Positions 8,816 through 64,000 of a stretch of DNA of 64,000 nucleotides are shown here, piece after piece. The stretch is from a virus (Duplodnaviria > Caudoviricetes). The notes beneath the pieces are model-generated. The model had not been told where the DNA came from and ran no database searches. It saw nothing but the letters and a program-made list of their open reading frames with translations. The DNA lies in the IMG/VR virus record IMGVR_UViG_3300031867_000034, positions 1 to 64,000 of that record; one strand, given 5' to 3'. Position 1 is the first letter of the stretch; every line of letters starts with the position of its first letter. The translations under genes were made by a program, and so were the position numbers.

Positions 8816-8873
8816 GAGAAACGCATGTGTGGGGTAGGTTCCCACCGCTCTTCTAATACAAAGGAGAGCATAT

Positions 8874-9416: not shown

Positions 9417-9455
9417 CGAGTTGTTCGGTATCTAACCATTAGGAGGAGAAAAACA

Positions 9456-10346: not shown

Positions 10347-10358
10347 TGCGGAGCGGAT

Positions 10359-11447: not shown

Positions 11448-11462
11448 TGATATAATTAAGTT

Positions 11463-12508: not shown

Positions 12509-12514
12509 GGAGGT

Positions 12515-13330: not shown

Positions 13331-13333
13331 TAA

Positions 13334-18687: not shown

Positions 18688-18708
18688 AGAGTATAAAGGA
18701 GGGATAAC

Positions 18709-21117
18709 ATGGCAAGTTATATTGTAACGGATAGGATAAGAGTAAATATTGTTCATAGCTTTGCAGTACCACCAAGAGTAAAGTGTGAGCAATATGATGG
18801 TGATTATACAAAGCTAATTCAAGCGATTGTTTATAATGGTGATGTTTTGTATAACATTCCAAGTGCTGTTAGACGTATTGTTGTTTCCGGTTTAAAGCCC
18901 GATGGTAATGGCTTTTCTTATGATTGCACATGGAGCGGCAACACAGTTTCTTTCTCACTGATGAGGCAAATGACTGCTGTTAATGGTGATGTGCCATGTA
19001 ATATAACAATGTTTGATTCAGAAAACAATCAAGTTTCATCGGCTGTTTTTGTTCTTGATGTTGAAAAAGCCGCTCTCCCTTCTGATGTCGTGGTATCATC
19101 TAATGATTTTCAGACTTTTGTTGATTATGTACAAGCGGCAAATTTATATTGGCAATACTCTAAATCTTATGCCGTTGGTAATACCGGTATTAGAAGCGGA
19201 GAAAATACTGATAATAGCCAATATTATGCACACCTTGCAAGGATGTATAATGGTGCCCCACGTAAAGCCGCAACAGCTAGTGCTATGACCGATGTTACCA
19301 AGATTTATGTATATGTTGGTTCAGAGAGTGGATATAACAATGGGCATTGGTATTTTTACAATGATTCCGAATGGGAAGATGGCGGCGTTTATAATGCGCA
19401 AGGACAGCAAACAGATACAGAATTTATAATACCCGGCATTGCGGCGGATGCGGAGGCTGTTGGCAATATATTAGGGCATGAAACGCTTGCTACACAAGCA
19501 CAAACTTTAATTGGTGGAATTAATGAAATTGCTAATCAGCTTGTTACACCACAAATGTTTGGTGCTAAAGGTGATGGAGTTACAGATGATACAGCCGCTT
19601 TTACAGCTTTAATAGCTTATTTAGATAGCCTTATTACTTCAAGAAATATGCATGATTATAGACCTGGTGGATATAAAGGTGGTGTTACACTTCATATCCC
19701 AAGCGGTACATATATTTTAAGTGAGCCATTTGTAATACCATCTTTTATCAAGGTTGTTGGTGATGGAAATGATAGCACCTTTTTAAAATTTTCATCTAGT
19801 GAGTATGGTATATCATTAGATGGTAAACCATATAACGGCTTAAAAACATATAGTGGCTCTATTAGCGATATTTGTATTGTTATGGATGGCACTGGTATTG
19901 GTTTATCAAATGCCGAGCTATCTACATCTATAACAAATCAGAACACTATATCGGATGCAGAATTTTCTAATATTCGTATTACTAATGCTAAAGCTGGTGT
20001 ACTAATACAAGGTGCTTGGAACTCTTTATTTGACCATATTGTCTGTGAGGGTTGTTCCTTTGGCTTTATCATGGATAGAAATGCGTTTGATGGTGGCAAT
20101 AATAATAATAGGCTTATCAATTATATGGGTACAAGTTGTAAAAATTGCGGACTATGGTGTGGTGCAAGTGGCTTGTATACCGAAAATCTAAATGTTGAAG
20201 CCATAGGAAATGTATGGCAAGGGGAATACTCAGATGAAAATATTACAGTAAATGGTAAAACATATTCAACTGAAAATCCTTGTGCTGTATATATTACTGG
20301 AACTGTTAGAGCAGATTTTATATCACCTTGGTTTGAACGTATTACTACTGTTAATGAAAATATCAATACTTACGCATTTTTATTTGCTAACTTGGACTCT
20401 GATGCAAATAATTATCCATTAACACGTGTTACTATTGATTCTCCACATTTTAATAATGATGTGTATAGACCAATTAAGTGTGATGGTAGTGCATATTTAT
20501 ATGTATCTAAAGTGTTTAGAAACCTTGGAGATTATCCTTTAGCAGAACTGACGAATGTTAGCCCTTATGGTATGTATATTTTTAGAGATATGACACAGTA
20601 TCAAGCTGATACAGTAACAGCAAGCCCCGTAGCAACTTATAATCAAATTATATTTGAAAATATAAGAGCAGAAATGGGTGTTACTGGTGTTATTAACACA
20701 TACCTTAATAGTAATTCAAAGGCAACAGTAATTGATAGGTCGTATTACAAATATGCCAGCAATTCAGCTTACAACTGTGAGCAATATAAAGCATTTAATA
20801 CAGGAATTAAAGCAATTAGCCATGTTACTAACAGTGTTGTCAATATGAAAGAATATTATGGTGACAGTAAAGCAATAGGCTTGCCATTAAATGTTGGTAA
20901 TGTTCAAGTTTCAAATGGCACAACTACAGTTGATATAATCCACCAAACAGATAAAACAAACTATTGTGTTATGTTTATTGCCGAGGATGCCACAGCCGCA
21001 CAAACATTAAAAGAGGGGTATTATATTTCTACAAAGGCATGGAATAAATTTACAGTTACATTTAATCGAGCATTTTCAGCGGATGCCACGTTGCATTATT
21101 TTGTAATGACTTCATAA
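18709..21117 (+). CDS. BppU-like baseplate protein fused to a pectate-lyase-like beta-helix tailspike
   Basis: N-terminal QYD..KPDG BppU-type domain; VTPQMFGAKGDGVTDDTAAF beta-helix start. Confidence 0.8.
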   Translation: MASYIVTDRIRVNIVHSFAVPPRVKCEQYDGDYTKLIQAIVYNGDVLYNIPSAVRRIVVSGLKPDGNGFSYDCTWSGNTVSFSLMRQMTAVNGDVPCNITMFDSENNQVSSAVFVLDVEKAALPSDVVVSSNDFQTFVDYVQAANLYWQYSKSYAVGNTGIRSGENTDNSQYYAHLARMYNGAPRKAATASAMTDVTKIYVYVGSESGYNNGHWYFYNDSEWEDGGVYNAQGQQTDTEFIIPGIAADAEAVGNILGHETLATQAQTLIGGINEIANQLVTPQMFGAKGDGVTDDTAAFTALIAYLDSLITSRNMHDYRPGGYKGGVTLHIPSGTYILSEPFVIPSFIKVVGDGNDSTFLKFSSSEYGISLDGKPYNGLKTYSGSISDICIVMDGTGIGLSNAELSTSITNQNTISDAEFSNIRITNAKAGVLIQGAWNSLFDHIVCEGCSFGFIMDRNAFDGGNNNNRLINYMGTSCKNCGLWCGASGLYTENLNVEAIGNVWQGEYSDENITVNGKTYSTENPCAVYITGTVRADFISPWFERITTVNENINTYAFLFANLDSDANNYPLTRVTIDSPHFNNDVYRPIKCDGSAYLYVSKVFRNLGDYPLAELTNVSPYGMYIFRDMTQYQADTVTASPVATYNQIIFENIRAEMGVTGVINTYLNSNSKATVIDRSYYKYASNSAYNCEQYKAFNTGIKAISHVTNSVVNMKEYYGDSKAIGLPLNVGNVQVSNGTTTVDIIHQTDKTNYCVMFIAEDATAAQTLKEGYYISTKAWNKFTVTFNRAFSADATLHYFVMTS

Positions 21118-21125
21118 AGAAAACA

Positions 21126-21167
21126 AAAGGGGCAACCACTATATTTTGTGGTTGCTTCTTTCCTTTT
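21126..21167 (+). terminator. Intrinsic terminator after the tail module
   Basis: GCAACCAC-N8-GTGGTTGC followed by T-rich tract. Confidence 0.75.
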
Positions 21168-21208
21168 ATGCTATAATTTGCTTAGATAATAGTTGATATT
21201 TTGAACAT

Positions 21209-21538
21209 ATGGGGGATTTTCTTATGGCAGAACCAAGTTATGTAACACAAAATGAATTTAACCTTGCTACAAAGAGAATAGATGAAGAAAATAAAAGGCA
21301 AAATGAGCGGTTGCAAAGCTTGGAAACAAATTATGCCATTGTAAATCAATTATCTATTCATATGGAGCGGCTTGCATCCAACATGGAGGCTATGGCAAAA
21401 GAACTTGCCAGGCAAGGTTTAAAACTTGATGATTTGGAAATGAAACCATCAAAACGATGGGATTTAATTGTTACATCAATCATTACCGGATTAGCCGGAG
21501 CCTTTATTGGATTACTGATTAAAGGATGGATGCTGTGA
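21209..21538 (+). CDS. Coiled-coil plus C-terminal TM protein (lysis-associated)
   Basis: One C-terminal hydrophobic helix; upstream of the holin. Confidence 0.6.
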   Translation: MGDFLMAEPSYVTQNEFNLATKRIDEENKRQNERLQSLETNYAIVNQLSIHMERLASNMEAMAKELARQGLKLDDLEMKPSKRWDLIVTSIITGLAGAFIGLLIKGWML

Positions 21539-21762
21539 GAAAAAGAAAAAACAAGGTTCCTAAAAAGATTGATAAAATTGTAAAGGGCGTTTGCATCTAT
21601 TGGGTAACATTTGTTGCGGTTGCCTGGATTACGTTTTGGGTAAAAGATAGTGTGCCGGATTCTCTTATACAATTTGGGCTTGGGGGTTCAGTATTAGAAC
21701 TTGTAATGACGGCTTTAATTGAAATTGCAAGGGATAAATACAACAAAGAAGAAAATGAATAA
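21526..21762 (+). CDS. Two-TM small membrane protein
   Basis: Two hydrophobic segments. Confidence 0.6.
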   Translation: MDAVRKRKNKVPKKIDKIVKGVCIYWVTFVAVAWITFWVKDSVPDSLIQFGLGGSVLELVMTALIEIARDKYNKEENE

Positions 21763-21803
21763 CATATGCCAAGGATAGTGATTTAAGGAAGAAGGTGGTT
21801 TAA

Positions 21804-22151
21804 TTGACTTGGTTTTTAAACAATTGGAGTTTTCTTGTTGTTGTGGTATGTGCCATTGGGGCAATTGTTATATATCTCAATAGGTTTATTGCCCTTCCAT
21901 CCGGCGAACAGCTTAACAAGGTTAAACAATGGCTTTTGTATGCTGTTATTGAGGCGGAAAAGCAATACCAGGGTGGCACCGGGGCATTAAAACTAAGAGC
22001 GGTATATAATGAGTTTTGCAAGGTATTCCCAAGCCTTGTGCCTATTATATCATTTGCGGTATTTTCCGAACTTGTTGATGAAGCATTGGAACAAATGAGG
22101 CATCTTTTAGAAACCAATTTAGATATTGCAAATTATATTGAGGGCGAGTAA
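21804..22151 (+). CDS. Holin, LL-H-like
   Basis: N-terminal TM; LLYAVIEAEK..GGTG.LKL motif; adjacent to the lysin. Confidence 0.7.
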   Translation: MTWFLNNWSFLVVVVCAIGAIVIYLNRFIALPSGEQLNKVKQWLLYAVIEAEKQYQGGTGALKLRAVYNEFCKVFPSLVPIISFAVFSELVDEALEQMRHLLETNLDIANYIEGE

Positions 22152-27249: not shown

Positions 27250-27278
27250 TTGACAATCCTATAAAAATAGTTTATATT
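27250..27278 (+). promoter_or_regulatory. Early sigma-A promoter P1
   Basis: TTGACA-17-TATATT; near-duplicate of 33008. Confidence 0.8.
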
Positions 27279-33007: not shown

Positions 33008-33036
33008 TTGACAATCCTATAAATAAAGTTTATTAT
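33008..33036 (+). promoter_or_regulatory. Early sigma-A promoter P2
   Basis: TTGACA-17-TATTAT; shares TTGACAATCCTATAAA with P1. Confidence 0.8.
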
Positions 33037-42425: not shown

Positions 42426-42701
42426 ATGAAAACTACAGTGCTTGGAATAAGACTAAATGAATATCAGAGAGATAAGCTTAAAGGAATTGCGAAAGAGAAC
42501 GGCGTTATTGAGGCTGAGCTTGTTCGTATTTTGTTAGATAGGCTTATTGAAGGAAAGATACAGATAAGAAACACTGCTGTTTTTGATGGTGCAGATATCA
42601 GTGGACTTGTAAAGCTGGCAGACAAAAAAGGAATCAGTGTTCAATTATTGATAGATGCAATTGTGGAGCAGTTGAATGAGTCTAGCGGAAATAAGAGATA
42701 A
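42426..42701 (+). CDS. Ribbon-helix-helix (CopG-like) protein
   Basis: VLGIRLNEYQRDKL..IAKENG...AELVR pattern. Confidence 0.65.
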   Translation: MKTTVLGIRLNEYQRDKLKGIAKENGVIEAELVRILLDRLIEGKIQIRNTAVFDGADISGLVKLADKKGISVQLLIDAIVEQLNESSGNKR

Positions 42702-44178
42702 AGAAATAGAGTATTGTTCGCAGCATATTGTTTATTTTGTTGAGGAATATGGGCATATTGAGGATAGAAACAGCCCTGAGATAGTTGTTAAGTTCAATCT
42801 TTGGGATGAACAGAGACAGGCCCTTAAGGATATGCTGGCACATAAATGGACAATAATACTCAAAGCTAGACAGCTTGGTATTTCTTGGCTTGTATTGCAT
42901 TATGCTTGTTGGCTGATGCTTACCCATACAGGAAGATCCATTATTGGACTTTCAAAATCAGAGACAGAGGCTAAAGAGCTTGTTCGTAGAATGGTGCTTA
43001 TTCTTAGGAATATGAGGGCACTTGTCAGAGAAAAGACGGATAAGACAGGCTGGGATGGTGCTTGGTTTGATTGGAATGCCTTGTCGGTAACTATTCACTT
43101 TCCAGGTAAAAGCGATAGTACATTTCAGTGCTTTGCTTCTGGTGAGAATGCTGCAAGATCATTTACAGCGGACCTTATTATATTTGATGAATGGGCGTTT
43201 CAGCAATTTGATAGGTCAATTTGGACTGCTGCACTCCCGGTTGTAAATAGACCGCTTTCTGGTCAAGTAATAGGCGTTTCTACTATAGCAAGAGGCTCAT
43301 TGTTTGAAGAGTTGTATACGACTCCAGACAATGGGTTTTTTAAGATATTTATTCCTTGGTATGCAGATCCTACACGTACACAGGAATGGTACGACAATAC
43401 AATGAAGCTTTCAGGAAAAGCGGCTATGTGGGCTGAGTACCCAGCAACAGTAGAGGAAGCATTAGAAGTACCTGGTGGAAGATTTTTTGAAGAGGTTTCA
43501 GATAGTTCCATTCTGTCAGATACGAGGTTGACACAGAATATAGTCTGCTATGTGGCTATGGACTATGGACTGGATATGTTGGCAGCTTATTGGATTATTA
43601 GGGATGTATTTGGTAATTCTCAGATCATTCATGAAGAGCATGAGCCAAATTTGATTATAAGTGCTGCTGCCGACAGAATTTTAAGAGTCACACAGGAACT
43701 TATTGAAAGAGAAGAGATAACAAGGGTTGAAGATTATCTTGCACCGCCGGATTTATGGAATAGGTCACAAGAAACCGGTAAATCAAGGGCTATTTTGTTT
43801 GCTGAAGCCGGATTAAACCTTACAAAAGTAAACAATGATATGAAGGCTGGCTGTATGGCTATCAAGGAAAATACAGCGCATGGTGAAGGTCAGAAGTCAA
43901 AACTCACTATTTATAAGAATTGTGCGCCTAATCTTTTGAATAGCCTAAAGAAAATACAGCATGATGATAAAAAGCCTGACATATATGCTAAAGATCCCCA
44001 TGATTTAACGCATTCTGTTGATGGACTTAGGTATTATTGCATCTTTTGGACGCATGGTGGAAAGGTTCAGAAAGAGAATAAACGTAAAAAATGGCGTAAA
44101 GATCAGTGGGAAGACTATAAAAACGCTAATCTGAAGGATAAACAATACCTAATTAGTATATGGGGAGAACCTTACTAA
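42676..44178 (+). CDS. terL: Terminase large subunit (phage B)
   Basis: ILKARQLGISW Walker A, LIIFDEWAF Walker B, AMDYG, HSVDGLRY. Confidence 0.9.
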   Translation: MSLAEIRDKEIEYCSQHIVYFVEEYGHIEDRNSPEIVVKFNLWDEQRQALKDMLAHKWTIILKARQLGISWLVLHYACWLMLTHTGRSIIGLSKSETEAKELVRRMVLILRNMRALVREKTDKTGWDGAWFDWNALSVTIHFPGKSDSTFQCFASGENAARSFTADLIIFDEWAFQQFDRSIWTAALPVVNRPLSGQVIGVSTIARGSLFEELYTTPDNGFFKIFIPWYADPTRTQEWYDNTMKLSGKAAMWAEYPATVEEALEVPGGRFFEEVSDSSILSDTRLTQNIVCYVAMDYGLDMLAAYWIIRDVFGNSQIIHEEHEPNLIISAAADRILRVTQELIEREEITRVEDYLAPPDLWNRSQETGKSRAILFAEAGLNLTKVNNDMKAGCMAIKENTAHGEGQKSKLTIYKNCAPNLLNSLKKIQHDDKKPDIYAKDPHDLTHSVDGLRYYCIFWTHGGKVQKENKRKKWRKDQWEDYKNANLKDKQYLISIWGEPY

Positions 44179-46124
44179 TGTTCGAGAGGCTAAAAAGAAT
44201 GATAAAAAAGAACATAGAAACACCTAAAGACGTATCAATGTGGGCTAAAAGGCTTGAATTTGCTAAAAATCAGTATAATAGCGAACTTAAGAACATGAAA
44301 ACCTATGAAAAGTACTATGAAGGTACCAGGGATGTTCAGCCGGACGCTAATAGGGGTATTACACCAAGCAAAAAAGCCACAAATGTACGTAATATTGTGT
44401 ATGAGCTGATTGAATCTCAGGTTGACTCTTCAATTCCTATGCCAAAGATTAGGGCCATTCACCCTGAAGATGATGAACTTGCCAAGAAAATGGAAAAATT
44501 TCTTGAAAACAAGGTAAAAACATGTGGTCTTACACTTGTAAATGATGCTCAGGAAAGAACAGTACCTATTATTGGTGGTGATTTCATGAGAGTTGAGTGG
44601 GATCAGAGAAGAGGTTTACATTCAGAAATTGGAGATTTAAAGATAACAGAGCTTCATCCTAAGAAAATAATTCCACAGGTCGGAGTTATTGATTTTGATG
44701 AAATGGATTACTTCTTTATTCAGGAACTAATGACAAAGAAAACTGTAAAAAGAGTTTATGGTGAGGATGTTTCTGATTGTGAGAATGATTATCCTGATAT
44801 GACAGAGGACCTTGAAGGTGCTTCTACAAATGAAGATCTTGTAACTGTAAATACCGCATTCTACCGCAATGATGATGGTGGAGTCGGTATTTTTGTTTGG
44901 TGTGATTATGTAAAACTTCTTGATCTTGATGAATATGAGGCCAGATATCTTGATAGATGTGCTAAATGTGGCGCAGTTATGGTTAATGGTGTCTGTCCAG
45001 AATGTGGATCTAAGAAAGCCAAGAAATCTAAAGAGGATTATGAAGAACTGGTTGATGCTATTGAAGTCACTGTAACAGATGGTACAAAGCGTCAGATTCC
45101 GGCTGTAGATATTACTCAGGAGCCTATGATAGATGAAATGGGAAATCCTGTTCTTAATGAATTTGGACAGCCTCAGATGAAGGTGGAACATACTAAAAAG
45201 AAGATACCATATTATAGACCTAACATTTATCCGGTCGTTCTTAGAAAAAATATCACTGCTCAGAATAAATTTGTTGGTGGTAGTGACGTAGCTGTTGTAA
45301 TAGATCAGCAAGATACTATTAAAAAGCTTGGAACAAAGATAAATGAAAAGTTGCTAAAAGGTGGCTCCTATATAACTCTTCCTGAAGGAATAGAAATAGA
45401 AAAAGATGGAGAAGAGCTAAATATTATCCGCTTAAGAAATCCAGCAGATAAATCTATGATAGATACGCTTACTCTTCAGCCTAATGTGCAGAACGACCAA
45501 AACTATTTGGAAATCAATTATTCCTGGGCGAAGTCCTCACTTGGAATTACAGATGCTTTCCAGGGTAAATATGATGCTTCTGCAAGATCTGGTACTGCTA
45601 AGCAGTATTCAATCAATCAGGCTGCCGGACGTTTGGATTCTAAGAGAACACTTAAAAATGAAGCTTATGCAAAGCTTTATGAGGTTATGTTTAAGTTTTG
45701 GCTGGCCTTTTCTGATAGTCCTTCTGAGATTACAAGTGTTAATTCTGAAGGAACTGCAGAACATGAGACACTTGATAGAAAAGAGTTTTTAAGGCTTGAC
45801 AGTGCCGGTGAATTTTACTGGAATGATGAATTTATATTCGAGACTGATCCTACATCAACACTTATGCAGAATAGAGAAGCTATGTGGAATCAGACAGATA
45901 TGAAATTACAGTCCGGTGCTTTTGGTCCTGTTGGTGATCTTGAAACAGCTAGAGCATATTGGACTATCATGAAGGCTAATGGTTATCCAAGTGCATCTGT
46001 TGTTTTGAATATTATAGAAGAAAGAATACAGAAACAACAGGAACAGGCTGCACAGATGGAAGCATTATCGGCTCAGCCTATGCCGGAGGAAGGAGGCTTG
46101 CAAGGTGAAATGCCCCTTATGTAA
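44178..46124 (+). CDS. Portal protein (podovirus type) with internal CxxC-CxxC insertion
   Basis: 654 aa after TerL; NIVYELIESQV, DAFQG motifs. Confidence 0.8.
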   Translation: MFERLKRMIKKNIETPKDVSMWAKRLEFAKNQYNSELKNMKTYEKYYEGTRDVQPDANRGITPSKKATNVRNIVYELIESQVDSSIPMPKIRAIHPEDDELAKKMEKFLENKVKTCGLTLVNDAQERTVPIIGGDFMRVEWDQRRGLHSEIGDLKITELHPKKIIPQVGVIDFDEMDYFFIQELMTKKTVKRVYGEDVSDCENDYPDMTEDLEGASTNEDLVTVNTAFYRNDDGGVGIFVWCDYVKLLDLDEYEARYLDRCAKCGAVMVNGVCPECGSKKAKKSKEDYEELVDAIEVTVTDGTKRQIPAVDITQEPMIDEMGNPVLNEFGQPQMKVEHTKKKIPYYRPNIYPVVLRKNITAQNKFVGGSDVAVVIDQQDTIKKLGTKINEKLLKGGSYITLPEGIEIEKDGEELNIIRLRNPADKSMIDTLTLQPNVQNDQNYLEINYSWAKSSLGITDAFQGKYDASARSGTAKQYSINQAAGRLDSKRTLKNEAYAKLYEVMFKFWLAFSDSPSEITSVNSEGTAEHETLDRKEFLRLDSAGEFYWNDEFIFETDPTSTLMQNREAMWNQTDMKLQSGAFGPVGDLETARAYWTIMKANGYPSASVVLNIIEERIQKQQEQAAQMEALSAQPMPEEGGLQGEMPLM

Positions 46125-46308
46125 TTCTGAAATGAGAATAAAAGCTACCGACTATGTTATGAATGAAGGAAAGCTTTTTACTAAGCAGATTCTTACATGT
46201 CGAAAAAAGGATTGTCCTAACAGTGGTAAAGATGTGAAGACAATCTACACACCTATGATAGTCTCTGAAGACGCTGAGGCTAAAGAAGAGGTTACTGCAT
46301 CCGAATAG
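46105..46308 (+). CDS. Small Zn-ribbon protein
   Basis: CPLC...CRKKDC. Confidence 0.65.
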   Translation: MKCPLCNSEMRIKATDYVMNEGKLFTKQILTCRKKDCPNSGKDVKTIYTPMIVSEDAEAKEEVTASE

Positions 46309-46375
46309 GGTGCTTTTTTTATACCTAAAATTCGCAGTGAATAGCGTAAAAATCCAAAAAAGAAAGGAATTGAAT

Positions 46376-47245
46376 ATGAAAGAAAAAGACCTTTTAGCTA
46401 TGAATCTTCAGTTTTTTGCTGAAGGTGATGAAGCTGAGGCAGAAGGCGCAAACGAGACTGAAGCCGCCGATCAGTCACAGGAAACCGCTGAAGGTACTGA
46501 GACTGTTTCAAATGAAGGCGAACAGACTGAGGAAGCCGCCGAACCTCAAACACAGTCACCAGAAACCAACGCAGCGTTCGCAAATATGCGTAGACAGATG
46601 GAAGCAGCTAATAGAAGACTTGCTGACATTGATGCTATGTATGCGCAACAGTTCGGACAGTATACAAATCCTGAAACCGGACAGCCAATCAGGAGCGCAA
46701 AGGACTATATGGATGCTATGGCAGCCCAGCAGAGAGTACAGGCAAGGGAACAGCTTAAAGCAAACAATATTGATCCTTCCTTGATTGACAACATGATTGC
46801 TAATTCGCCAGCCGTAAGACAGGCAGAAGCAGCAACAGCAGAACTAAATGGAATAAGGGCACAACAGATGATTGAGGCAGACTATATAGAAGTTTTAAAG
46901 TTTGATCCTTCATTGTCAAGCAAAGAGGACATTTTAAATGATCCTTCTTATGTGAGTGTAGTTGATTATGTTCGTACACATCCTGGAATGAGATTTAGTG
47001 ATGCTTATAAACTTGTAAACTTTGACAGGCTTTCAAATTCTAAGAGTGAAGCGGCTAAACAGTCAGCTATAAATCAGGTAAAAAGCAAGAATCACCTTGC
47101 GACAGGTGCCGCACTTAATGTTGGCACAGCTCCGGAGGATATTCCGGCTAATATGTTGGAAACCTTTAAAGAGAGATTTCCTGAAAAGAGTGATAAAGAA
47201 TTGAAAGCCCTATACAACCAGGTGATTAAATCACAGAAAGGGTAA
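46376..47245 (+). CDS. Capsid scaffolding protein
   Basis: MNLQFFAE motif and acidic N-terminus; upstream of the capsid gene. Confidence 0.8.
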   Translation: MKEKDLLAMNLQFFAEGDEAEAEGANETEAADQSQETAEGTETVSNEGEQTEEAAEPQTQSPETNAAFANMRRQMEAANRRLADIDAMYAQQFGQYTNPETGQPIRSAKDYMDAMAAQQRVQAREQLKANNIDPSLIDNMIANSPAVRQAEAATAELNGIRAQQMIEADYIEVLKFDPSLSSKEDILNDPSYVSVVDYVRTHPGMRFSDAYKLVNFDRLSNSKSEAAKQSAINQVKSKNHLATGAALNVGTAPEDIPANMLETFKERFPEKSDKELKALYNQVIKSQKG

Positions 47246-47248
47246 ATT

Positions 47249-48274
47249 ATGGCAGTTACAGTTAGAGATAATACAAAGAATGGCGATCAGTGGAATGAGT
47301 GGGCAACCATCCTTGATGCTAAGATTTATGATGCTGATGCACAGCAGAACAAGTATGATGACCTTGTAAAAGATATTGTAGTAGAAAAGAAGTCTAAGAG
47401 ATGGGGCGAGAAGTCCACAGTAATGGGCGGTCTTGGAGATTACGATATCAAGGACGAAGGTCAGGACGCAGCAGAGGACAGCTACGCAGAGGGCTACGCA
47501 AAATTTATTGCGCACAATACCTTCTCAAAGAGCGTAGTTATCTCAAAGGAAATGAGAGACGATAATCAGTGGGATGAAGCAGAACAGAAGGTTGTTAATC
47601 TTGTTCAGGCTTCTAAGAGAACAAGAGCTAAGTTCGTTACTGCTGCACTTGCTGCTTCAATCGGATCAACAACTACAATGACTTTTGGTGGAAAATCAGG
47701 ACTTGACATTGCTTGCGCTGATGCACTTGCACTTTTCAATTCTGCACATCCTCTTAAGAACGCTGGACAGGGCGTTACACAGGGTAATCATTTCTCAAAT
47801 GTACTCGGCAGCAACACTGTTGTTCTTAACAAGGTTGCTAACGCTATGAGAAACTTCAAGGATGATCGTGGAGAGGTTCTTGGTTTCACAGCAGATACTA
47901 TTATCTGCCCTGGTAATGATCCAGAGTATGAGGATTTCATTAAGAGAGTAATCGGATCTGACGGTGAAGTTGGTTCAAACAACAACGATATCAACACACA
48001 GAGAGGCCGCTGGAAACTCATTGTAAATCCTCTTTGGACACCTACAATCAGTGCAACCAATCATCCTCTTATTATCATGTCAAGCGAAGCTCTTAAGGAA
48101 CTTCAGGGAACAAAGCTTTATAGCCGTACTCCACTTGATGTTGAGAACGAGGTTAAGGTTGAGTCCAGAAACATGGTATACAACGGATTTGAGAGATATT
48201 CTCTTGCATTCACAAACTGGCGCCATGTTGCACTTATCGGATCATCTGATGCTGATGCTCAGGCTCTTGCTTGA
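47249..48274 (+). CDS. Major capsid protein (phage B)
   Basis: 341 aa; ADALALFNSAHPL motif; highly biased codons; followed by a terminator. Confidence 0.85.
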   Translation: MAVTVRDNTKNGDQWNEWATILDAKIYDADAQQNKYDDLVKDIVVEKKSKRWGEKSTVMGGLGDYDIKDEGQDAAEDSYAEGYAKFIAHNTFSKSVVISKEMRDDNQWDEAEQKVVNLVQASKRTRAKFVTAALAASIGSTTTMTFGGKSGLDIACADALALFNSAHPLKNAGQGVTQGNHFSNVLGSNTVVLNKVANAMRNFKDDRGEVLGFTADTIICPGNDPEYEDFIKRVIGSDGEVGSNNNDINTQRGRWKLIVNPLWTPTISATNHPLIIMSSEALKELQGTKLYSRTPLDVENEVKVESRNMVYNGFERYSLAFTNWRHVALIGSSDADAQALA

Positions 48275-48501
48275 TCTGTAAGAAATGTTTAGGGGCCGGA
48301 TTAAATTCCGGCTCCTTTATTAATAGGAGAAAAGACATGTTAAAAGTTGGAGATAGGCTAACAGTTGATGGACAGCTCGTAGAAGTTACCTATGTAATGA
48401 ATGAGAAGTCTTATGGTTATAAGCCTGTTAAGGAAGAAAAAACTGTTGAAACTGAGACAGAGGAAATAGCTCCCAAAAGGAGAAAAAGAAAGGTATAAAG
48501 C

Positions 48502-49470
48502 ATGACTACCTGGTTTGATATAAAGTTTACAACTTTACAGAAAATGTTTTCCATTACAGGATCACAGAAAACTATTCCTAATGATTCTGCGACAATGGAA
48601 TATGTTAATGCTATGCCACAGGCATGTAATGAGGCGCTTCAGCTTCTTTCTACTTCTGGAAAATTCATCATAAAGGAATACCAATATGTGAATTATCCTT
48701 TTGAGAACATGCTTGGTAAGGATATGTTTCTGACATACTCCATAGTAAATGATTATAAAATCTTTTCAGTTGATGGGGCTAAGGCATATTATTTTAAGAT
48801 ATTCGGTAAACCTACTTCCTGTAAGCTTTATGTCGGTGATAAAGAGGTTATAAACTTCTATCCTGAAGACAATACGATTGATTCTAAAGTCTTTACTACA
48901 TTCAAGGGTAACATTACTTATCCTGCTTGGGGAGAAGATGAAGAGGAAAGCACCATTGTTAAGATTGTGATAGAGGCTAAAACCCCTGTTAATGTGACAA
49001 ATATGTGCTTTTATGACTGCGAGTTTGAGTCTGATAATGACGTACCACAGTATGAAAAGTATATCAAGATAAAGATGGATGATGTTCTGTCAGACTTCTA
49101 CCAGCTTGCACCGGCTGAGTTATATGATCTTGGCATGTCTGGTGATGATTATATTGTGGCTAATAAATATTTTCAGGAAGCAGACAAGACGCTTGTTATT
49201 CCTAGAAGTGAACAGGGAATATTTATTATTCACTATAGAGCATATCCACAGCAGATTACTTTAGAGACACCTGATGATGAAGAATTATCACTTGATCCGG
49301 AAGTCGCTGCATTACTTCCTTTATATATGGCTTCACAGCTATATAAAGATGATGATAACGCTATAGCTACAATTTACAGAAATGAATTTGAGGTAGGGCG
49401 TGACGCATTATCGCAAGGGGCATTGATACCTAAAAAAGAAAAATTTGTAACGTCTAGTGGGTGGGCATAA
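48502..49470 (+). CDS. Head-tail adaptor (tubular A-like)
   Basis: LLPLYMASQLYKDDD motif; synteny. Confidence 0.65.
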   Translation: MTTWFDIKFTTLQKMFSITGSQKTIPNDSATMEYVNAMPQACNEALQLLSTSGKFIIKEYQYVNYPFENMLGKDMFLTYSIVNDYKIFSVDGAKAYYFKIFGKPTSCKLYVGDKEVINFYPEDNTIDSKVFTTFKGNITYPAWGEDEEESTIVKIVIEAKTPVNVTNMCFYDCEFESDNDVPQYEKYIKIKMDDVLSDFYQLAPAELYDLGMSGDDYIVANKYFQEADKTLVIPRSEQGIFIIHYRAYPQQITLETPDDEELSLDPEVAALLPLYMASQLYKDDDNAIATIYRNEFEVGRDALSQGALIPKKEKFVTSSGWA

Positions 49471-58413: not shown

Positions 58414-61400
58414 ATGGCTAAACAGTCAATGAAACAGCAGATATATCAATCAATAGCAAATAGTCAGGTACAAAAGGTAATGTCTCAGAAAAGAGATCAG
58501 GAGATTGCACAGTTACAAGCTGATTATGATGCTTGGGCTAAACAGCAAGCAGAAATACAGCAGTTACAGGCAGATTATGACGCATGGTTAAAAGAGAATA
58601 ATCCTCAGCCTGTTCAGACTCAGCCAGTACAACAGGCTACTGTTAATGAGATTAAACAGCAGATACCTTCTATTGCTGATTATGATAAGACAGCAGATAA
58701 TTTGCAGTACAGACAGGCCAAGAGGAATATCGCATTAAGAGATAAGCAGCGTGAGGACTACCAGCGTCAGCAGCAGATGGAACAGGAACTTGCTGATCCA
58801 AGATATGCTGAAAAAGAAAAGAAAAAGACAGAATTTAAGCAACTATCTAATCTTGCAGATTATCAGGCTGCTATGGATGCTCAGAAAAAGCAGACTCAAA
58901 ACAACTATGATGATTTAGTGTCTACTGTTCAGAATATGGAAAAAGCTGATAAGTGGCTTGATCCGTCCTATAAGTTGTCTAAGGAAGAGGAAAAGGAAGC
59001 TAAGAAGGTTGCTGAGACTGAGCTTGCAAAACTGAAGGGCAGAAGTCTTACAGATGAAGAAAAGGCAAGAAAGCAGACTTTTGAGGACCTTAAGACCAAG
59101 ACAAGCAATTTTAGATCTTTTGCTGTTGGTGCTGCTGATAAGGCATTGGATTACGGAAAGTTTATTTTACAGGGTGTGGCTGATACTCAGTCAAGACAAT
59201 TAGCGGCTCAGAATGAAACGGCTCAGGCTATGGGTGTTAATACTGGTTTAACTAATGAAGAGTTAAGCGGTATTGATGAAGAGACAAAAGAAAACATTCA
59301 GAGGCTAAATGATAGTACTGCTGATATTGTCCAGAATGTTAAGACTCAAAGTCCTAGAGCATATGGTCGCGGTCAAATGTCTACACAGCTTGCAGCATAC
59401 ATGCTTACTAATCCGGCTTTTGATTCTTTGGGTACTGCTGTAAATGCTGGTAGAATAGGTTCTTTTGCTGCTAATCAGGTCGGACAAAATGCTCAGGATC
59501 TTGTACTAGAAGAATTACCAATGCTTCAAAAGGCTATGAATGATGGTGATATATCTGAGGAAGAGAGAAATGAGATTTTAAAGACCGCCGGCTATAATGC
59601 TGTTGGTAATCTTATTCCTGGTATTGCTATGGAAGGTGTTAATAGTGTTATTGCTAAAAGGGCGGCTGATGCTGCGTCCAATGAAGCATTCAGGCAGAAT
59701 GTAAAGCAAGGCGCTGATTATCTTGAATACATCAATAAGAATGGTATCACTGGCCTTGAACCAAAGGCTAATGAAATTCCACAGATAGATCCTACCACTG
59801 CAGCTAATAATGATTTTACTAGGCTGATGAATGAATACAACAATACATTCAAGGATGATTCTGCCATGAGAAATATTTATAGCGAAGAGGATCTTGATGG
59901 TAGTCTTAACAAGCAACTTTCTGAGGCATTAGCAGATAATTCAAAGGCTTCTGTAAAAAAACCACAAATTGATAATATCAATGCTGCGCTTGATAAGGTG
60001 AATGCTGGAAGAACTACATATATTAAAGATTTTTATGAAGGCCCTAAACCAGTTTCTTTAGGTAATTCAGAACGTATAGAAATAGCTCCTGATACATATA
60101 ACAGGGCATTGGATATTTACAATAAGGCAAAACAGGATGGCTCCTTTGGTCCTAGGCTCAGGCAGTATGTAAAACAGTTATATGAATCAAAGTATAAAGA
60201 TCCGAAATATGGGCGAGTTATTTTAAATAACGTTTCTTTTAATGATGGTGATTATGTTGTTGAAATTGGTCACAGAGCTTTAAAAGAAGCTATTGATAAA
60301 GGACATTTATCACCAGAGAAAATTGCTACACTTGAAAAACTGGATGATCTTCTAGCAGATAGTGAGTTCATTGATAGCGGTTTACCCAAATATCATGGAA
60401 CAACTAATAAGTCACAACTTGTAAGATATGATTATTTTGAAACACCTATAACAATTAATGGAAAGAATTATATAGTTGGATTTGATGTAGAAGTAAATAA
60501 AGGTGGTAATAGATATAAAACACATAAGGTAGTAAATGAAATAAACCTCATCCCTACTGAGGGACAAGGTTTAACTTCAAATATTACTGAGACCACCGCA
60601 TCCAAGGGATTAACGGATGGAATTGGGGTAACACCCGATCGCATAACGGGGATCCCTACTCAGCAGTTAGAAAGATCTCTTTCTAACTCAAACATAGCAG
60701 ATGCTATCTCAGAAGTCAATAAAAAATCTGTAAAGAATATTGACATGCCACAAGATGCTCAGGAAAAGATATTATCTGACTTTGAGCAGATTTATAACAG
60801 CATGGATGATATGAATGCTGCGGCTGAAGCTTCCGGAAACGCTAAGGCAATTGAGAAGTTTGAAAAACTGCAGCAGTCAGTATTTGAGTATGAGGACTCT
60901 GTCTGGAAGTCTGAAAGTCTGGATGATGTTAATAAAGCTAAGAAAAAAGCGGATGCAGCTAGACAGGCTTTTGTACGTGAAATGCAGAAGACAGATCCTA
61001 ACTATAGGGCTAGTCTTACCGGCACTAAGCTTGGCAATGCTGAGTTTAGACGTACTTCAACAGCACCAACAGATAGCGCATTGTTGGATGAAATTGTTGA
61101 TGATATGGTTAAACAGGATATGGATAATCCTAATCGTTTTGTTAAAGATGCAAACAAAACCGATATTCCTGTTAATGCTCCTGTTAGCGGTAATGGTGAA
61201 CTTGAAATACACACTATACATGGTAGAAATGGTAGAGAGATTTACCAAGTTGTATCAAGGGAAGGAGATTTACTAACTCCGGTTGAGCCTGGAAAGACTT
61301 TCAACACAAGGGAAGAAGCAGAGAAAGCTATAGATCAGTACAGAACAATGGCTGAGTCTATAAGCAAACCTAAGAGCGACATTATCACATCTGAGCCTAT

Positions 61401-64000
61401 CGAGCCAGGAAAGTATGAGATACCAGATACACCGGAGAACGCGCCTAAAGATGTTCCTCCTGTTGATGGTATGAAAGAACGCGGAACATCTAAACATATC
61501 CGTAATGATGGCACTCCAATGAGGATGGAAGGCGTATCGGACGAAGTAGTATCAGACTTTAAAGACAATCCAGATATGTATAAGGCGCTTAAAAACTCTG
61601 ATACATTATCTAAGGCTGAGAAAATCTATAATGAGAGTTCAGATGCTTTAGTTGACTTTAGAGATATGGTTAGAAACCATGATCCCGCTGCCCTTCCATT
61701 AGGACACCAACTTGCTAAAGATTATTCTGCTGCCGGAAATCACGAAGCTGCTGCTCAGATTTATAGAGAAATGGGAGAACAGCTTACAAAAGCCGGTCAA
61801 TTCTCACAAGCGGCAGCAATTAATATGATGAAGAATGATCCTCTTACCGCAAGAGCCTATTTTGAACGCGAATTAGATGCGTTAAATAAAGCCGGCGCTG
61901 ACAAGTATGGTAAGAAGTGGAAAGATTTTGTGTTAACAGATGAAGAGCGAGCATTATTTGACAAAATCGCTCCTGGCGATTCTGAAGCCATTAAAAATGC
62001 AATAGATAAAATAGGCGTCAGAATTGAGAAAGAATATCCGGCTTCTGCATGGGAAAAGGTCCTTGAATTTAGAAGAGTAGCCATGTTATTTAACACTAGG
62101 ACTATTGTTAGAAATACATTGGCTAACCCTCCTACAGCGGCACTGCGATATGTTTCTGATAGGATTGAAGCTCTAGGCCAATATGCAGCACACTTAATCG
62201 ATCCGGACTTTGAGGTTACACAAGCAATTCGCGGAAGTAACCTAGAAACAAGAAAACTTGCAAAGGAGGTATATAATTCCAGCAAAGTTAAATCTTTGTT
62301 AGAAGGCGGAACAGGACGTTTATCTGAGATTCCTTCAGTTGGTGATTATGCCAAGTCGAAGCAGATGTTTAAAGGCGGATTTGTTTCTGACTGGGTTAAC
62401 AAAATGACTAATGGTGGCGTTGAAAAGCTTAACGCAAAACTCGGTAAGGAGAACGCAAAGTCTTTACTTGAACTAACTAGAAGTTCTGCTTATAAAGCCC
62501 TTGAAGTTACTGATAACCCAATGGTCCGTGAAAACTTTATATCAAGACTTGGAAGTTACATACGCGCAAAAGGAATAAAAAATGCCGCAGACGTTCCAGA
62601 CGAAGCTATATTGATGGCTTACGAAGAAGCAATGAAAGCTACTTATAAAGATAATAGCTTTATGGTTCAGGCTATTCGTAATTTTAAAAGCGGCATAGAA
62701 AGAACTGGAAACCATATTATTCCTGGTTTGGGTGATATGGCAAGTCAGGCTTTGATTCCTTACGTTCAGGCACCGGGAAATATTGCTGCAAGAACAATAG
62801 ACTATAGCGGCATAGGTTTTGGTAAAGGTATCGCCAAGATTGTTAAAGGCGCTTCTGCAAATGATGTAAAGATGATATCTAAAGGCATTGAAGAAGCTTC
62901 TAAGGGAGCAACAGGATCGTTAATGGCAGCGCTTGGATATGCTCTTTATAAATCTGGTGTCATAACAGGTACTTATTCTAATGACAACGATCAAAAAGCC
63001 TTTGAGAAAAAGAATGGATTTAGAGAGTTTGCTTTTAGATATAAGGTAAATGGACAGACAAAATATGACACTATAGACTGGATGCAACCATTTGTTGATA
63101 CAATTATGCCTGGCGTTTTGTTAGCTCAAGCAATAGAAAATTCTGATAAGTACGATTCAGATATTCTAAGATATTTTGGATTTGAAGGAACAAAACTAGG
63201 CAAAGTAACAGGCGTGGCAAAAGAAGGAGTAAAGAAGAATGTCAATTACTTCTTTGATTCAACGCCGCTTAAAAACCTTGGAGAACTGTTTAAAGGCAAT
63301 TATGGTAAAGAAACAGATTTAGCTGGTAATTTATGGGAAAATACAGTTGAAGATTTTGCAAGTGCATTAGTCCCAGCCGGAGTAAACGCCGTTACAAAGT
63401 CTGTTGATCCAATACAAAGGCAAACATACGACCCTAGCAATGCGTTTGGAACTTTTGTAAATGGTGTTGCTGCAAAGTTACCTAAAGTATCTGAGGCTTT
63501 GCCAGTTAAGTATGATACCTGGGGGCAGCCAATGACTTATGGCAATAGCAAGGGTGAGGCTGCTTTTGCAAAGATGTTATATCCTGGCGAACACACAAGT
63601 GATAAGGCAGATGAAACAGATAAAGAGCTTAATCGCTTGTTTGAAACAACAGGTAGCAACGCAGTATTCCCTCAAGTCGCCCCAAGTAAAGTAAATGGTG
63701 AGAAAATCAATAATAAAGAAGTCTCTCAGTATCAACAGGACGTAGGTGTTCGTAACAAATTACTGGTAGATGGTTTTATTAATTCCAGTTATTATGATGC
63801 TTTAGAAGACACAGACAAGGCCGATAAAATCGCTAAATTATATGGTGTTTCAAAAGCTATTACGGAGCGCGATAAGTTTGGCAAGGAAGTGTCTGAAAAT
63901 AGCGAATACAAAAAAGCTATTGAAGCATATGATGAAGCTGGTGGTGGAGAAAAGGGTGTAGATGCAGTAATTAACCATTATACAGCTAAAAAAATAACAG
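58414..64000 (+). CDS. Giant ejection / large polyvalent protein, 3'-truncated (>=1862 codons; not in ORF track)
   Basis: ATG with RBS GGAGG; the frame was stop-free wherever I translated it, though not checked codon by codon; helical and coiled-coil, with a putative BECR/LPD-like domain near 60120-60545. Confidence 0.8.
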   Translation, partial: MAKQSMKQQIYQSIANSQVQKVMSQKRDQEIAQLQADYDAWAKQQAEIQQLQADYDAWLKENNPQPVQTQPVQQATVNEIKQQIPSIADYDKTADNLQYRQAKRNIALRDKQREDYQRQQQMEQELADPRYAEKEKKKTEFKQLSNLADYQAAMDAQKKQTQNNYDDLVSTVQNMEKADKWLDPSYKLSKEEEKEAKKVAETELAKLKGRSLTDEEKARKQTFEDLKTKTSNFRSFAVGAADKALDYGKFILQGVADTQSRQLAAQNETAQAMGVNTGLTNEELSGIDEETKENIQRLNDSTADIVQNVKTQSPRAYGRGQMSTQLAAYMLTNPAFDSLGTAVNAGRIGSFAANQVGQNAQDLVLEELPMLQKAMNDGDISEEERNEILKTAGYNAVGNLIPGIAMEGVNSVIAKRAADAASNEAFRQNVKQGADYLEYINKNGITGLEPKANEIPQIDPTTAANNDFTRLMNEYNNTFKDDSAMRNIYSEEDLDGSLNKQLSEALADNSKASVKKPQIDNINAALDKVNAGRTTYIKDFYEGPKPVSLGNSERIEIAPDTYNRALDIYNKAKQDGSFGPRLRQYVKQLYESKYKDPKYGRVILNNVSFNDGDYVVEIGHRALKEAIDKGHLSPEKIATLEKLDDLLADSEFIDSGLPKYHGTTNKSQLVRYDYFETPITINGKNYIVGFDVEVNKGGNRYKTHKVVNEINLIPTEGQGLTSNITETTASKGLTDGIGVTPDRITGIPTQQLERSLSNSNIADAISEVNKKSVKNIDMPQDAQEKILSDFEQIYNSMDDMNAAAEASGNAKAIEKFEKLQQSVFEYEDSVWKSESLDDVNKAKKKADAARQAFVREMQKTDPNYRASLTGTKLGNAEFRRTSTAPTDSALLDEIVDDMVKQDMDNPNRFVKDANKTDIPVNAPVSGNGELEIHTIHGRNGREIYQVVSREGDLLTPVEPGKTFNTREEAEKAIDQYRTMAESISKPKSDIITSEPIEPGKYEIPDTPENAPKDVPPVDGMKERGTSKHIRNDGTPMRMEGVSDEVVSDFKDNPDMYKALKNSDTLSKAEKIYNESSDALVDFRDMVRNHDPAALPLGHQLAKDYSAAGNHEAAAQIYREMGEQLTKAGQFSQAAAINMMKNDPLTARAYFERELDALNKAGADKYGKKWKDFVLTDEERALFDKIAPGDSEAIKNAIDKIGVRIEKEYPASAWEKVLEFRRVAMLFNTRTIVRNTLANPPTAALRYVSDRIEALGQYAAHLIDPDFEVTQAIRGSNLETRKLAKEVYNSSKVKSLLEGGTGRLSEIPSVGDYAKSKQMFKGGFVSDWVNKMTNGGVEKLNAKLGKENAKSLLELTRSSAYKALEVTDNPMVRENFISRLGSYIRAKGIKNAADVPDEAILMAYEEAMKATYKDNSFMVQAIRNFKSGIERTGNHIIPGLGDMASQALIPYVQAPGNIAARTIDYSGIGFGKGIAKIVKGASANDVKMISKGIEEASKGATGSLMAALGYALYKSGVITGTYSNDNDQKAFEKKNGFREFAFRYKVNGQTKYDTIDWMQPFVDTIMPGVLLAQAIENSDKYDSDILRYFGFEGTKLGKVTGVAKEGVKKNVNYFFDSTPLKNLGELFKGNYGKETDLAGNLWENTVEDFASALVPAGVNAVTKSVDPIQRQTYDPSNAFGTFVNGVAAKLPKVSEALPVKYDTWGQPMTYGNSKGEAAFAKMLYPGEHTSDKADETDKELNRLFETTGSNAVFPQVAPSKVNGEKINNKEVSQYQQDVGVRNKLLVDGFINSSYYDALEDTDKADKIAKLYGVSKAITERDKFGKEVSENSEYKKAIEAYDEAGGGEKGVDAVINHYTAKKIT

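What the first reader, a model, noticed from the sequence alone, without database searches (positions are those of the whole stretch)
60546..60719. Antisense promoter and structured RNA hidden in-frame right behind the putative nuclease domain
Seen: the linker after the domain (…NSNIADAISEVN) is, on the minus strand, a TTGACT-17-TATGTT promoter (60719-60691). Directly downstream are a perfect inverted repeat GTTAGAAAGA/TCTTTCTAAC (60666-60687), hairpins CCCG/CGGG, CATCC/GGATG and TCCCT-CAGT-AGGGA, and a near-duplicated TCCCTACT(G/C)AG (60551, 60654). This dual-coded stretch would give a ~140-nt or longer RNA pointing into the domain's coding sequence. Established: type III TA systems neutralise RNase toxins with structured RNAs, and type I systems use antisense RNA. 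Inference: a mobile toxin-domain plus RNA-antitoxin cassette inserted in-frame in a virion protein. It would keep the RNase inert in the producer cell and release it on injection. I know of no description of this arrangement.
Basis: partly seen in the sequence, partly recalled or inferred. Interest (0 to 1): 0.8.

Follow-up and report, generated by a model that had tools for sequence, protein, structure and literature searches.

The report
Hidden antisense small-RNA gene behind LPD3
A complete small-RNA gene (promoter, folded ~150-nt RNA, terminator) is written backwards inside the flexible linker that follows the LPD3 domain of a giant phage protein, and nearly every relative of that domain keeps such an RNA gene, so domain and RNA appear to work as a pair.

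Summary
At 60533-60719 the minus strand carries TTGACT-17-TATGTT with an extended -10, a ~150-nt RNA and a 14-bp hairpin plus U tract. All of it lies in frame in a 2027-aa polyvalent ORF of a temperate phage, just after a Pfam LPD3 domain.

One sequence alone would not prove it, because promoter-like hits in the area are at chance level. Comparison does:
- Both RNA alignments show compensatory pair changes beyond every shuffle and slid control.
- G-U versus A-C counts and folding energies pick the minus strand.
- Synonymous sites are most constrained exactly here along the whole gene.
- 26 of 27 LPD3 loci examined have a minus-strand TTGAC-17-TA promoter 103-198 nt after the domain. In one of them the promoter lies beyond the stop codon.

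Rfam has no match and I found no paper describing it. Earlier notes of this scan report the same theme on other DNA.

The most likely role is a cis-antisense regulator of the LPD3-bearing message, like lambda OOP or 3'-overlapping type I antitoxins. This is inferred, not shown. The "RNase toxin" label for LPD3 has only weak fold hints (best Z 5.5), and the antitoxin role is untested.

The parts
58414..64000 (+). Polyvalent protein ORF. It is 2027 aa in full and runs past the window end to base 64497 of the record (L004:414-6497). It is the last gene of the second morphogenesis module.
   Evidence: terminase, portal, capsid and adaptor lie upstream; integrase, ImmA-like peptidase and HTH repressor lie downstream on the minus strand
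60157..60516 (+). LPD3 domain (Pfam PF18798), residues 582-701
   Evidence: 36.8 bits, cut-off 27; AlphaFold2 pLDDT 70-86 over the domain; BFVD matches are other LPD3 polyvalent proteins
60535..60735 (+). In-frame linker (NEINLIPTEG...SEVNKKSVK) that is the protein-side image of the RNA gene. It is predicted to be disordered.
   Evidence: pLDDT below 40 for model residues 146-202; highest synonymous-site constraint of the whole gene
60691..60719 (-). Sigma-70-type promoter: -35 TTGACT (60719-60714), 17-nt spacer with TG at 60699-60698, -10 TATGTT (60696-60691)
   Evidence: the same design on the minus strand after LPD3 in 26 of 27 LPD3 loci; background of the pattern about 0.03 per kb per strand
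60534..60687 (-). Predicted small RNA of about 150 nt. The start is predicted near 60687-60684 and the 3' end in the U tract at 60541-60534.
   Evidence: fold z = -5.55; consensus structure with 18 of 49 pairs compensatory; minus strand favoured
60666..60687 (-). 5' hairpin P1 (GUUAGAAAGA / UCUUUCUAAC)
   Evidence: helix 1. Replaced by different but still pairing sequences in L008, L009 and L010.
60586..60664 (-). Multibranch domain closed by GCUGAG/CUCAGU (60659-60664 with 60586-60591). It has inner hairpins at 60634-60650 and 60593-60620. This insert is specific to this lineage.
   Evidence: helices 2-6, 12 pairs with changes on both sides. It is absent from the shorter RNAs of other LPD3 lineages.
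60534..60573 (-). Terminator-like 14-pair hairpin (60573-60542) plus U tract (UUUCAUUU). It overlaps the codons VVNEINLIPTEGQGL.
   Evidence: helix 7 includes G-U pairs that would be C-A mismatches on the plus strand; there is no T run after it on the plus strand

Best explanation
The flagged stretch is a self-contained small-RNA gene on the minus strand: a near-consensus host-type promoter, a ~150-nt structured RNA and an intrinsic terminator. It is overprinted in frame on the disordered linker that follows the LPD3 domain of a polyvalent protein. That protein is encoded as the last gene of a temperate phage's morphogenesis module. The RNA belongs to an uncatalogued family of short hairpin RNAs that sit antisense at the 3' edge of LPD3 coding sequences, whether LPD3 is embedded in a giant protein or ends a smaller one. 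These points are shown here by comparison. The inferred mechanism is as follows. Host RNA polymerase transcribes the RNA from the strong promoter. The RNA pairs with the perfectly complementary LPD3-linker part of the late mRNA and lowers its expression, by duplex cleavage, decay or a block to translation. This would keep the LPD3-bearing effector silent when it should not be made, for example in the lysogen. Lambda OOP does this to cII, and RatA and SR4 do it to their toxin mRNAs. The conserved 'linker motif' [NST]-I-x6-V-[NK] is the imprint of the -10 and -35 boxes, not a protein feature.
For: Promoter: a minus-strand TTGAC(A/T/C)-17-TAnnn(T/C), mostly with an extended TG, lies 103-198 nt after the YRTH motif in 24 of 24 phage loci with enough sequence, covering about 12 distinct promoter sequences. 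It is also present in both LPD3 loci found in a 401-genome Bacillota sample. The background rate is 7 hits in 262 kb of strand-bases. In L086 the promoter lies after the stop codon of a 541-aa LPD3 protein, so a peptide motif cannot explain it. The valine under the -35 box is GTC in all six close relatives and GTCAA recurs in the other lineages, although GTC is only 4-14% of valine codons in the six genes. Structure: in alignment A1, 91.7% of cells are paired against 41-49% when partners are slid, 18 pairs are compensatory, and 0 of 500 shuffles reach this. In A4 the figures are 88% against 31-48%, 14 compensatory pairs and 0 of 500. Some compensatory changes are synonymous. Strand: the minus strand folds more stably in 15 of 15 loci. 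The consensus energy is -47.95 on minus against -29.62 on plus, with 31 G-U against 4 A-C cells. Constraint: identical codons among identical residues are 0.82 in the linker, 0.54 in LPD3 and 0.48 elsewhere. The top 7 of 196 sliding windows over the gene all fall at residues 698-798. The linker is predicted to be disordered. Domain and RNA are gained or lost together in P0113 and P0109. Precedents for the mechanism: lambda OOP (PMC5869508) and bsrG/SR4 and txpA/RatA (PMC3834814, PMC3531473).
Against: There are no expression data, so the transcript, its ends and any effect on the polyvalent mRNA are all predicted. The -10 box in this window is only 4 of 6 (TATGTT), and promoter-like sites in this region are no more frequent than chance in a single-sequence scan. 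One relative (L010/P0009) keeps a well-preserved RNA gene without any LPD3 in the 12 kb held. This fits poorly with a role tied only to LPD3 expression. One degenerate LPD3 (L013) has no promoter. LPD3 toxicity is not shown. The sequences compared fall into perhaps ten lineages and are not independent.
Confidence: 0.55

Rival explanations
1. The RNA is a protein partner of LPD3 rather than an antisense regulator. It would bind the domain, as a type III-like antitoxin or decoy for an RNase-like fold or as a cofactor, and the antisense position would merely keep the two genes linked.
For: The RNA gene is tightly co-inherited with one particular domain family across very divergent lineages. A GUAGG element, the image of the conserved Pro-Thr, recurs in the RNAs of all lineages. 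LPD3 has many conserved polar residues (K, R, D, E, N, H). Its model's best solved-structure matches, though weak, are RNase toxins: CdiA-CT 6cp9_A at Z 5.5, rmsd 3.0 over 93 residues, then BrnT, colicin D, MqsR and RelE at Z 3.3-4.7.
Against: The fold matches are below the level that tool's own notes call meaningful, and Foldseek against the PDB gave nothing at E below 0.001. Apart from the terminal hairpin, RNA length and architecture differ greatly between lineages, from 74 to 150 nt, which is unusual for a specific protein ligand. GUAGG may be conserved only because of the peptide. The RNA is not repeated and is on the opposite strand, unlike ToxI-type antitoxins.
Confidence: 0.2
2. The RNA acts in trans, like a 'moron' small RNA expressed from the prophage. 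Possible targets are host genes, other phage genes, or the mRNA of superinfecting related phages that carry the same cassette. Its position in the linker would be incidental.
For: It has an autonomous promoter-to-terminator unit. It sits in the last late gene, next to the integrase end of the genome, where autonomous lysogen-expressed genes often lie (own knowledge; context). L010 keeps the RNA without LPD3. The cassette is more alike between phages than its flanks, at 66-77% nucleotide identity, higher than in the neighbouring LPD3 segment in all five pairs. There is a conserved unpaired CAAUUCC stretch and a 15-nt match of the cassette sequence to 18305-18319 in the same genome (E = 0.046).
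Against: The near-universal link to LPD3 in otherwise unrelated genomes is not expected for a general trans-acting RNA. The single trans match is at chance level and was not followed up. No conserved seed is shared between lineages.
Confidence: 0.15
3. The conservation is at the protein level, for example a protease-processing or docking linker of the polyvalent protein, or the structure serves the plus-strand mRNA through pausing or stability. The minus-strand signals would then be coincidental.
For: Parts of the peptide (NEINL, QGL, APTQ, NVNK) are conserved. The plus strand also folds well in this window, with z = -6.56. Polyvalent proteins are thought to be cut into their domains (PMC5512222).
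Against: Hairpin interiors change sequence and peptide while keeping pairing. Synonymous sites are constrained. G-U asymmetry and energies favour the minus strand in every locus. The promoter persists outside the ORF in L086. The linker is predicted to be disordered. A processing site could coexist with the RNA gene, but it does not explain these data.
Confidence: 0.05

Closest known systems
Phage lambda OOP RNA with its promoter pO and terminator tO (PMC5869508)
   Same: It is a short RNA from its own promoter in a temperate phage. It is transcribed against the 3' part of an upstream protein gene (52 nt overlap with cII) and ends at a hairpin terminator. Its functional promoter reaches into the next coding sequence (gene O). 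It lowers expression of a toxic or regulatory protein through RNA duplex formation.
   Different: There is no sequence or structural homology. Here the whole unit, promoter included, is translated in frame as part of one giant protein. It is tied to a protein domain family across many unrelated phages and bacteria rather than to one regulatory circuit. The RNA is larger (about 150 nt) and multibranched in this lineage.
Type I toxin-antitoxin systems of Bacillota with 3'-overlapping antisense RNAs (bsrG/SR4, txpA/RatA; PMC3834814, PMC3531473, PMC6563280)
   Same: The partners are convergent, tail-to-tail. A strong constitutive promoter drives a structured antisense RNA that overlaps the 3' end of the partner's coding region. 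They are prophage-borne. The expected action is through duplex formation and RNase III.
   Different: The partner is not a small hydrophobic peptide. It is a soluble domain of about 130 aa, here inside a 2027-aa protein, and its toxicity is not shown. In fused forms the RNA pairs in the middle of a long mRNA rather than at its end.
Type III toxin-antitoxin systems (ToxIN, CptIN, TenpIN; own knowledge)
   Same: A structured RNA is genetically coupled to a protein that may be an RNase, on mobile elements and phages.
   Different: ToxI-type RNAs are tandem repeats upstream of and on the same strand as the toxin, and the toxin processes them. Here the RNA is single-copy, downstream and antisense.
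LPD3 (Pfam PF18798) of polyvalent proteins (Iyer et al. 2017, PMC5512222)
   Same: The protein domain next to the RNA gene is a bona fide member.
   Different: The paper and Pfam describe only the protein domain and list its function as unknown. No associated RNA or antisense promoter is mentioned.

Membership tests
Pfam PF18798 (LPD3) | Match to the family profile above the curated cut-off | tested here: met
   36.8 bits against a cut-off of 27, residues 582-701, profile positions 6-113 of 114
Independent bacterial small-RNA gene | Own promoter of the host type at a fixed position | tested here: met
   TTGACT-17-TATGTT with extended TG; present in 26 of 27 LPD3 loci against a background of about 0.03 per kb per strand
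Independent bacterial small-RNA gene | Intrinsic terminator (GC-containing hairpin followed by a U tract) on the same strand | tested here: met
   14-pair hairpin at 60573-60542 plus UUUCAUUU; hairpin plus U tract in the other lineages
Independent bacterial small-RNA gene | Secondary structure maintained by compensatory change | tested here: met
   18 of 49 and 14 of 27 pairs have changes on both sides, with 0 of 500 shuffles reaching this
Independent bacterial small-RNA gene | A detectable transcript with defined ends | not testable with these tools
   No transcriptome data were available
Type I toxin-antitoxin system | Antisense RNA complementary to the partner's mRNA | tested here: met
   By position: the RNA is the exact complement of 60534-60687 of the polyvalent ORF
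Type I toxin-antitoxin system | The toxin is a small (usually under 60 aa) hydrophobic peptide | tested here: not met
   The partner is an LPD3 domain inside a 2027-aa protein. The 58-aa minus-strand ORF at 60468-60644 has no conserved start in relatives and runs past the terminator.
Type I toxin-antitoxin system | The partner is toxic and the RNA relieves the toxicity | not testable with these tools
   Needs expression experiments
Type III toxin-antitoxin system (ToxIN-like) | Tandem RNA repeats upstream of the toxin gene on the same strand | tested here: not met
   The element is single-copy in the 79.8-kb record. It lies downstream of the domain on the opposite strand.
BECR / RelE-like RNase fold (for the 'nuclease domain' claim) | Structural match of the domain to solved RNase toxins of that fold | tested here: inconclusive
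   VIA-align wide search: 6cp9_A at Z 5.5 (rmsd 3.0, 93 aligned), and BrnT, CdiA-CTs, colicin D, MqsR and RelE at Z 3.3-4.7, all below the tool's stated noise level. Foldseek against the PDB gave no match at E below 0.001. A profile search of PDB sequences found nothing.

The most novel reading that the evidence does not exclude
LPD3 and its antisense hairpin RNA form a previously undescribed, portable two-part module: an RNase-like effector domain and an RNA that controls or neutralises it. The module can exist as a stand-alone gene pair or be fused in frame into injected polyvalent proteins, with the RNA gene's promoter and terminator being translated as a linker. This would be a new class of toxin-antitoxin-like system and a general case of a non-coding gene shaping a 'protein motif'.
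Probability: 0.25. Interest if true: 0.85.

Novelty: new variant of a known kind. Interest (0 to 1): 0.72.

Why it matters
It shows that a conserved 'linker motif' in a widespread family of phage and conjugative-element effector proteins is really the footprint of a promoter and terminator on the other strand. An entire non-coding gene is hidden inside a coding sequence. Intergenic-only RNA searches such as those behind Rfam would miss it, and so would protein-domain annotation. It gives LPD3, a domain with no known function, its first functional handle: whatever LPD3 does, evolution keeps an antisense RNA against it. That makes a concrete experiment possible, namely recoding the promoter synonymously and watching the domain's expression and toxicity. 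It may also reveal how phages keep injected weapons harmless in the cell that makes or harbours them.

Tried and rejected
- Rfam: no credible family in the window region (best E = 0.37, a eukaryotic snoRNA model) and none in ten related loci.
- Mobile repeat or MITE idea: the element is single-copy in the 79.8-kb record.
- Nucleotide and protein searches of the phage and plasmid collections found nothing.
- The first viral-contig scan with a single protein and a DNA pattern scan found nothing.
- Loose DNA patterns in genome contigs and metagenome contigs returned 54 loci, all chance matches by BLAST.
- A protein search restricted to the 76-aa linker found only one relative.
- A small protein on the minus strand (the 58-aa ORF at 60468-60644) was rejected. 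Its start position is not conserved, it runs through the terminator, and it is absent in other lineages.
- PHROGs gave no match.
- PADLOC gave only a marginal RmrT hit at E = 0.0023.
- A profile search of PDB sequences found nothing meaningful.
- Foldseek against the PDB gave only weak NTF2-like rows.
- The ESM Atlas structure library was unavailable.
- L013's genome is not held, so relatives of that host could not be sampled.
- The other minus-strand promoter-like sites in the same ORF, such as 62743, were not pursued. The synonymous-constraint scan shows nothing there.
- No covariance model was built, because the comparative evidence was already clear.
Full report
**Setting**

The window is the first 64 kb of a 79,797-bp virus record. 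The finding lies inside one long ORF, 58414 to beyond the window end (2027 aa in full, L004:414-6497). This ORF closes a morphogenesis module of terminase, portal, capsid and SU10-like adaptor genes. It is followed on the opposite strand by an integrase, an ImmA/IrrE-type peptidase and an HTH repressor, so the phage is temperate. The only Pfam domain in the ORF is LPD3 (PF18798) at residues 582-701, nt 60157-60516. Iyer et al. 2017 list LPD3 among the polyvalent-protein domains whose functions remain elusive, and not among those they flag as potentially enzymatic (PMC5512222).

**The observation**

The consensus scan independently lists two minus-strand features:
- the promoter TTGACT-17-TATGTT (60719-60691), with TG upstream of the -10;
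- a terminator-like 14-pair hairpin at 60573-60542 followed by a T run.

The 161 nt between them fold much better than shuffles on both strands, with z = -5.55 on minus and -6.56 on plus. In that 8-kb region the number of promoter-like sites equals the chance expectation (19 against 23). One sequence alone therefore proves nothing.

**Relatives**

A search of 5.8 billion proteins gave homologous polyvalent proteins at 31-54% identity. I fetched the DNA of nine of them. An alignment-based scan of viral contigs added 18 more LPD3 loci from several lineages. A 401-genome sample of Bacillota gave two more.

**Promoter conservation**

In 24 of 24 phage loci with enough sequence, the minus strand has TTGAC(A/T/C), exactly 17 nt, then TAnnn(T/C). 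The site lies 103-198 nt after the conserved YRTH motif of LPD3. These loci carry about twelve different promoter sequences, including GC-rich ones, and most have an extended TG. Both bacterial loci have it too: TTGACT-17-TATAAT and TTGACA-17-TAAACT. Outside this spot the pattern occurs 7 times in 262 kb of strand-bases in the loci and 3 times on the two strands of the 64-kb window.

The peptide image is a fixed-spacing motif, [NST]-I-x6-V-[NK]. The cause, however, lies in the nucleotides:
- The valine is GTC in all six close relatives, and GTCAA recurs in the other lineages. GTC makes up only 4-14% of valine codons in the six genes.
- In L086 the LPD3 protein is 541 aa and stops at 1891-1893. 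The promoter (1926-1898) lies beyond the stop codon.

There are two exceptions. L013, a degenerate LPD3, has no promoter. L010/P0009 keeps the RNA gene but has no LPD3 in the 12 kb held.

**RNA structure**

For the window's lineage (A1, six sequences), RNAalifold gives these elements:
- a 5' hairpin;
- a multibranch domain closed by CUGAG/CUCAG;
- the terminator hairpin.

In A1, 91.7% of cells are paired against 41-49% when partners are slid. Eighteen of 49 pairs have changes on both sides, against 2-6 in the slid controls. None of 500 shuffles reaches this. Examples seen directly:
- ATCCCT/AGGGA becomes GTTC/GAAC, CACCT/AGGTG or CCTTA/TAAGG in the terminator stem, while the encoded peptide changes freely.
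- CGAC/GTCG, CCGC/GCGG and CGGC/GCCG occur in an inner hairpin. Between L009 and L010 this is achieved by synonymous changes only.

A second group (A4, seven sequences of three or four lineages) shares one long hairpin plus U tract. It has 88% pairing against 31-48% slid, 14 of 27 compensatory pairs and 0 of 500 shuffles. The two bacterial loci give 74-85-nt single-hairpin RNAs with U tracts. The family core is therefore promoter, long hairpin and U tract. The window's lineage has a 5' hairpin and an inserted multibranch domain, giving about 150 nt.

**Which strand**

- The minus strand is the more stable in 15 of 15 loci, by 2.6-16 kcal/mol.
- The consensus energy is -47.95 on minus against -29.62 on plus.
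- In the minus structure, 31 cells are G-U and 4 are A-C. Even in the structure predicted from the plus strand, A-C cells (16) outnumber G-U cells (8).
- No T run follows the hairpin on the plus strand, so the long mRNA is not terminated there.

**Constraint on the coding side**

Among identical residues, the codon is also identical in 82% of cases in the linker, 54% in LPD3 and 48% elsewhere. In an unbiased 40-codon sliding scan of the whole gene, the seven highest of 196 windows all lie at residues 698-798; the median is 0.45 with sd 0.11. AlphaFold2 models LPD3 with pLDDT 70-86, but the linker scores below 40. The protein side is a disordered spacer, and the conserved letters serve the RNA gene.

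**Domain and RNA as a unit**

Homologous polyvalent proteins P0113 and P0109 lack roughly residues 460-770 of this protein, which is both LPD3 and the RNA cassette. L086 and L087 show the pair where LPD3 lies at or near the C-terminal end of a much smaller protein.

**What LPD3 is**

- Foldseek against the PDB gives nothing below E = 0.001.
- BFVD returns only other LPD3 proteins.
- An exhaustive VIA-align search puts RNase toxins at or near the top: CdiA-CT 6cp9_A at Z 5.5, then BrnT, other CdiA-CTs, colicin D, MqsR and RelE at Z 3.3-4.7. By the tool's own calibration these values are within noise.

LPD3 has many conserved polar residues. An RNase-like toxin is therefore a reasonable guess, but it is not a result.

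**Mechanism**

Shown here: a conserved, strand-specific, structured transcription unit antisense to the 3' edge of LPD3 coding sequences.

Inferred: it acts by pairing with that mRNA. The closest precedents are lambda OOP and the prophage type I pairs bsrG/SR4 and txpA/RatA. OOP is a short leftward RNA from pO that overlaps 52 nt of the end of cII, its functional promoter reaches into gene O, and it suppresses CII activity and toxicity (PMC5869508). The type I pairs are silenced through RNase III (PMC3834814, PMC3531473).

This is not a member of type I, because the partner is not a small hydrophobic peptide. It is not a member of type III either, because the RNA is single-copy and on the opposite strand. 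A protein-binding role and a trans-acting role remain open. L010, which keeps the RNA without LPD3, argues for some function beyond cis control.

**Novelty**

Rfam 15 has no match. Full-text searches found no paper linking LPD3 or polyvalent proteins to an antisense RNA. Earlier notes of this scan describe the same theme on other genomes: phage darA-like genes, gut Clostridia, and small LPD3-like genes in ultra-small bacteria. I reached the reading before consulting them and tested the phage-side claims myself. The claims about ultra-small bacteria were not tested here.

Noticed in passing
window 4013-22000 and 42676-64000: The record holds two separate phage morphogenesis modules. One has an SPP1-type portal at 5342-6781 and a tail fibre or pectate-lyase-like protein at 18709-21117. 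The other has a terminase, portal, capsid and SU10-like adaptor at 42676-49470. The 79.8-kb 'complete' record may be two phages in tandem or a chimeric assembly.
   Followed up: partly
window 27250-27278 and 33008-33036 (+): Two near-identical plus-strand promoter-like sequences (TTGACAATCCTATAAA..AGTTTAT...) lie 5.8 kb apart. They are probably a repeated phage regulatory element.
   Followed up: no
L086:268-1926: LPD3 is the C-terminal domain of a 541-aa protein. The antisense RNA overlaps the last ~90 nt of the ORF, and its promoter TTGACA-17-TATATT lies in the intergenic DNA after the stop codon.
   Followed up: yes
L010:4453-4674 (protein P0009): A relative keeps the RNA cassette, with its promoter and compensatory changes intact. 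The LPD3 domain upstream is missing, and homology to the window's protein resumes exactly at the U-tract codons (NEINL).
   Followed up: partly
window 18305-18319 (+): A 15-nt exact match to 60617-60631 of the cassette lies inside the 677-aa ORF at 16654-18687. The antisense RNA would be complementary to that mRNA. The match is at chance level (E = 0.046).
   Followed up: no
Only the second copy (CCTACTCA, the closing helix of the multibranch domain) is conserved in relatives. The first copy lies in the variable interior of the terminator hairpin.
   Followed up: yes
L004:6792-9961 (record 64792-67961, minus strand): A lysogeny module lies directly after the polyvalent gene: a tyrosine integrase, an ImmA/IrrE M78 peptidase with a double zinc ribbon, and an HTH repressor. 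The close relatives L006-L010 have a similar layout.
   Followed up: partly
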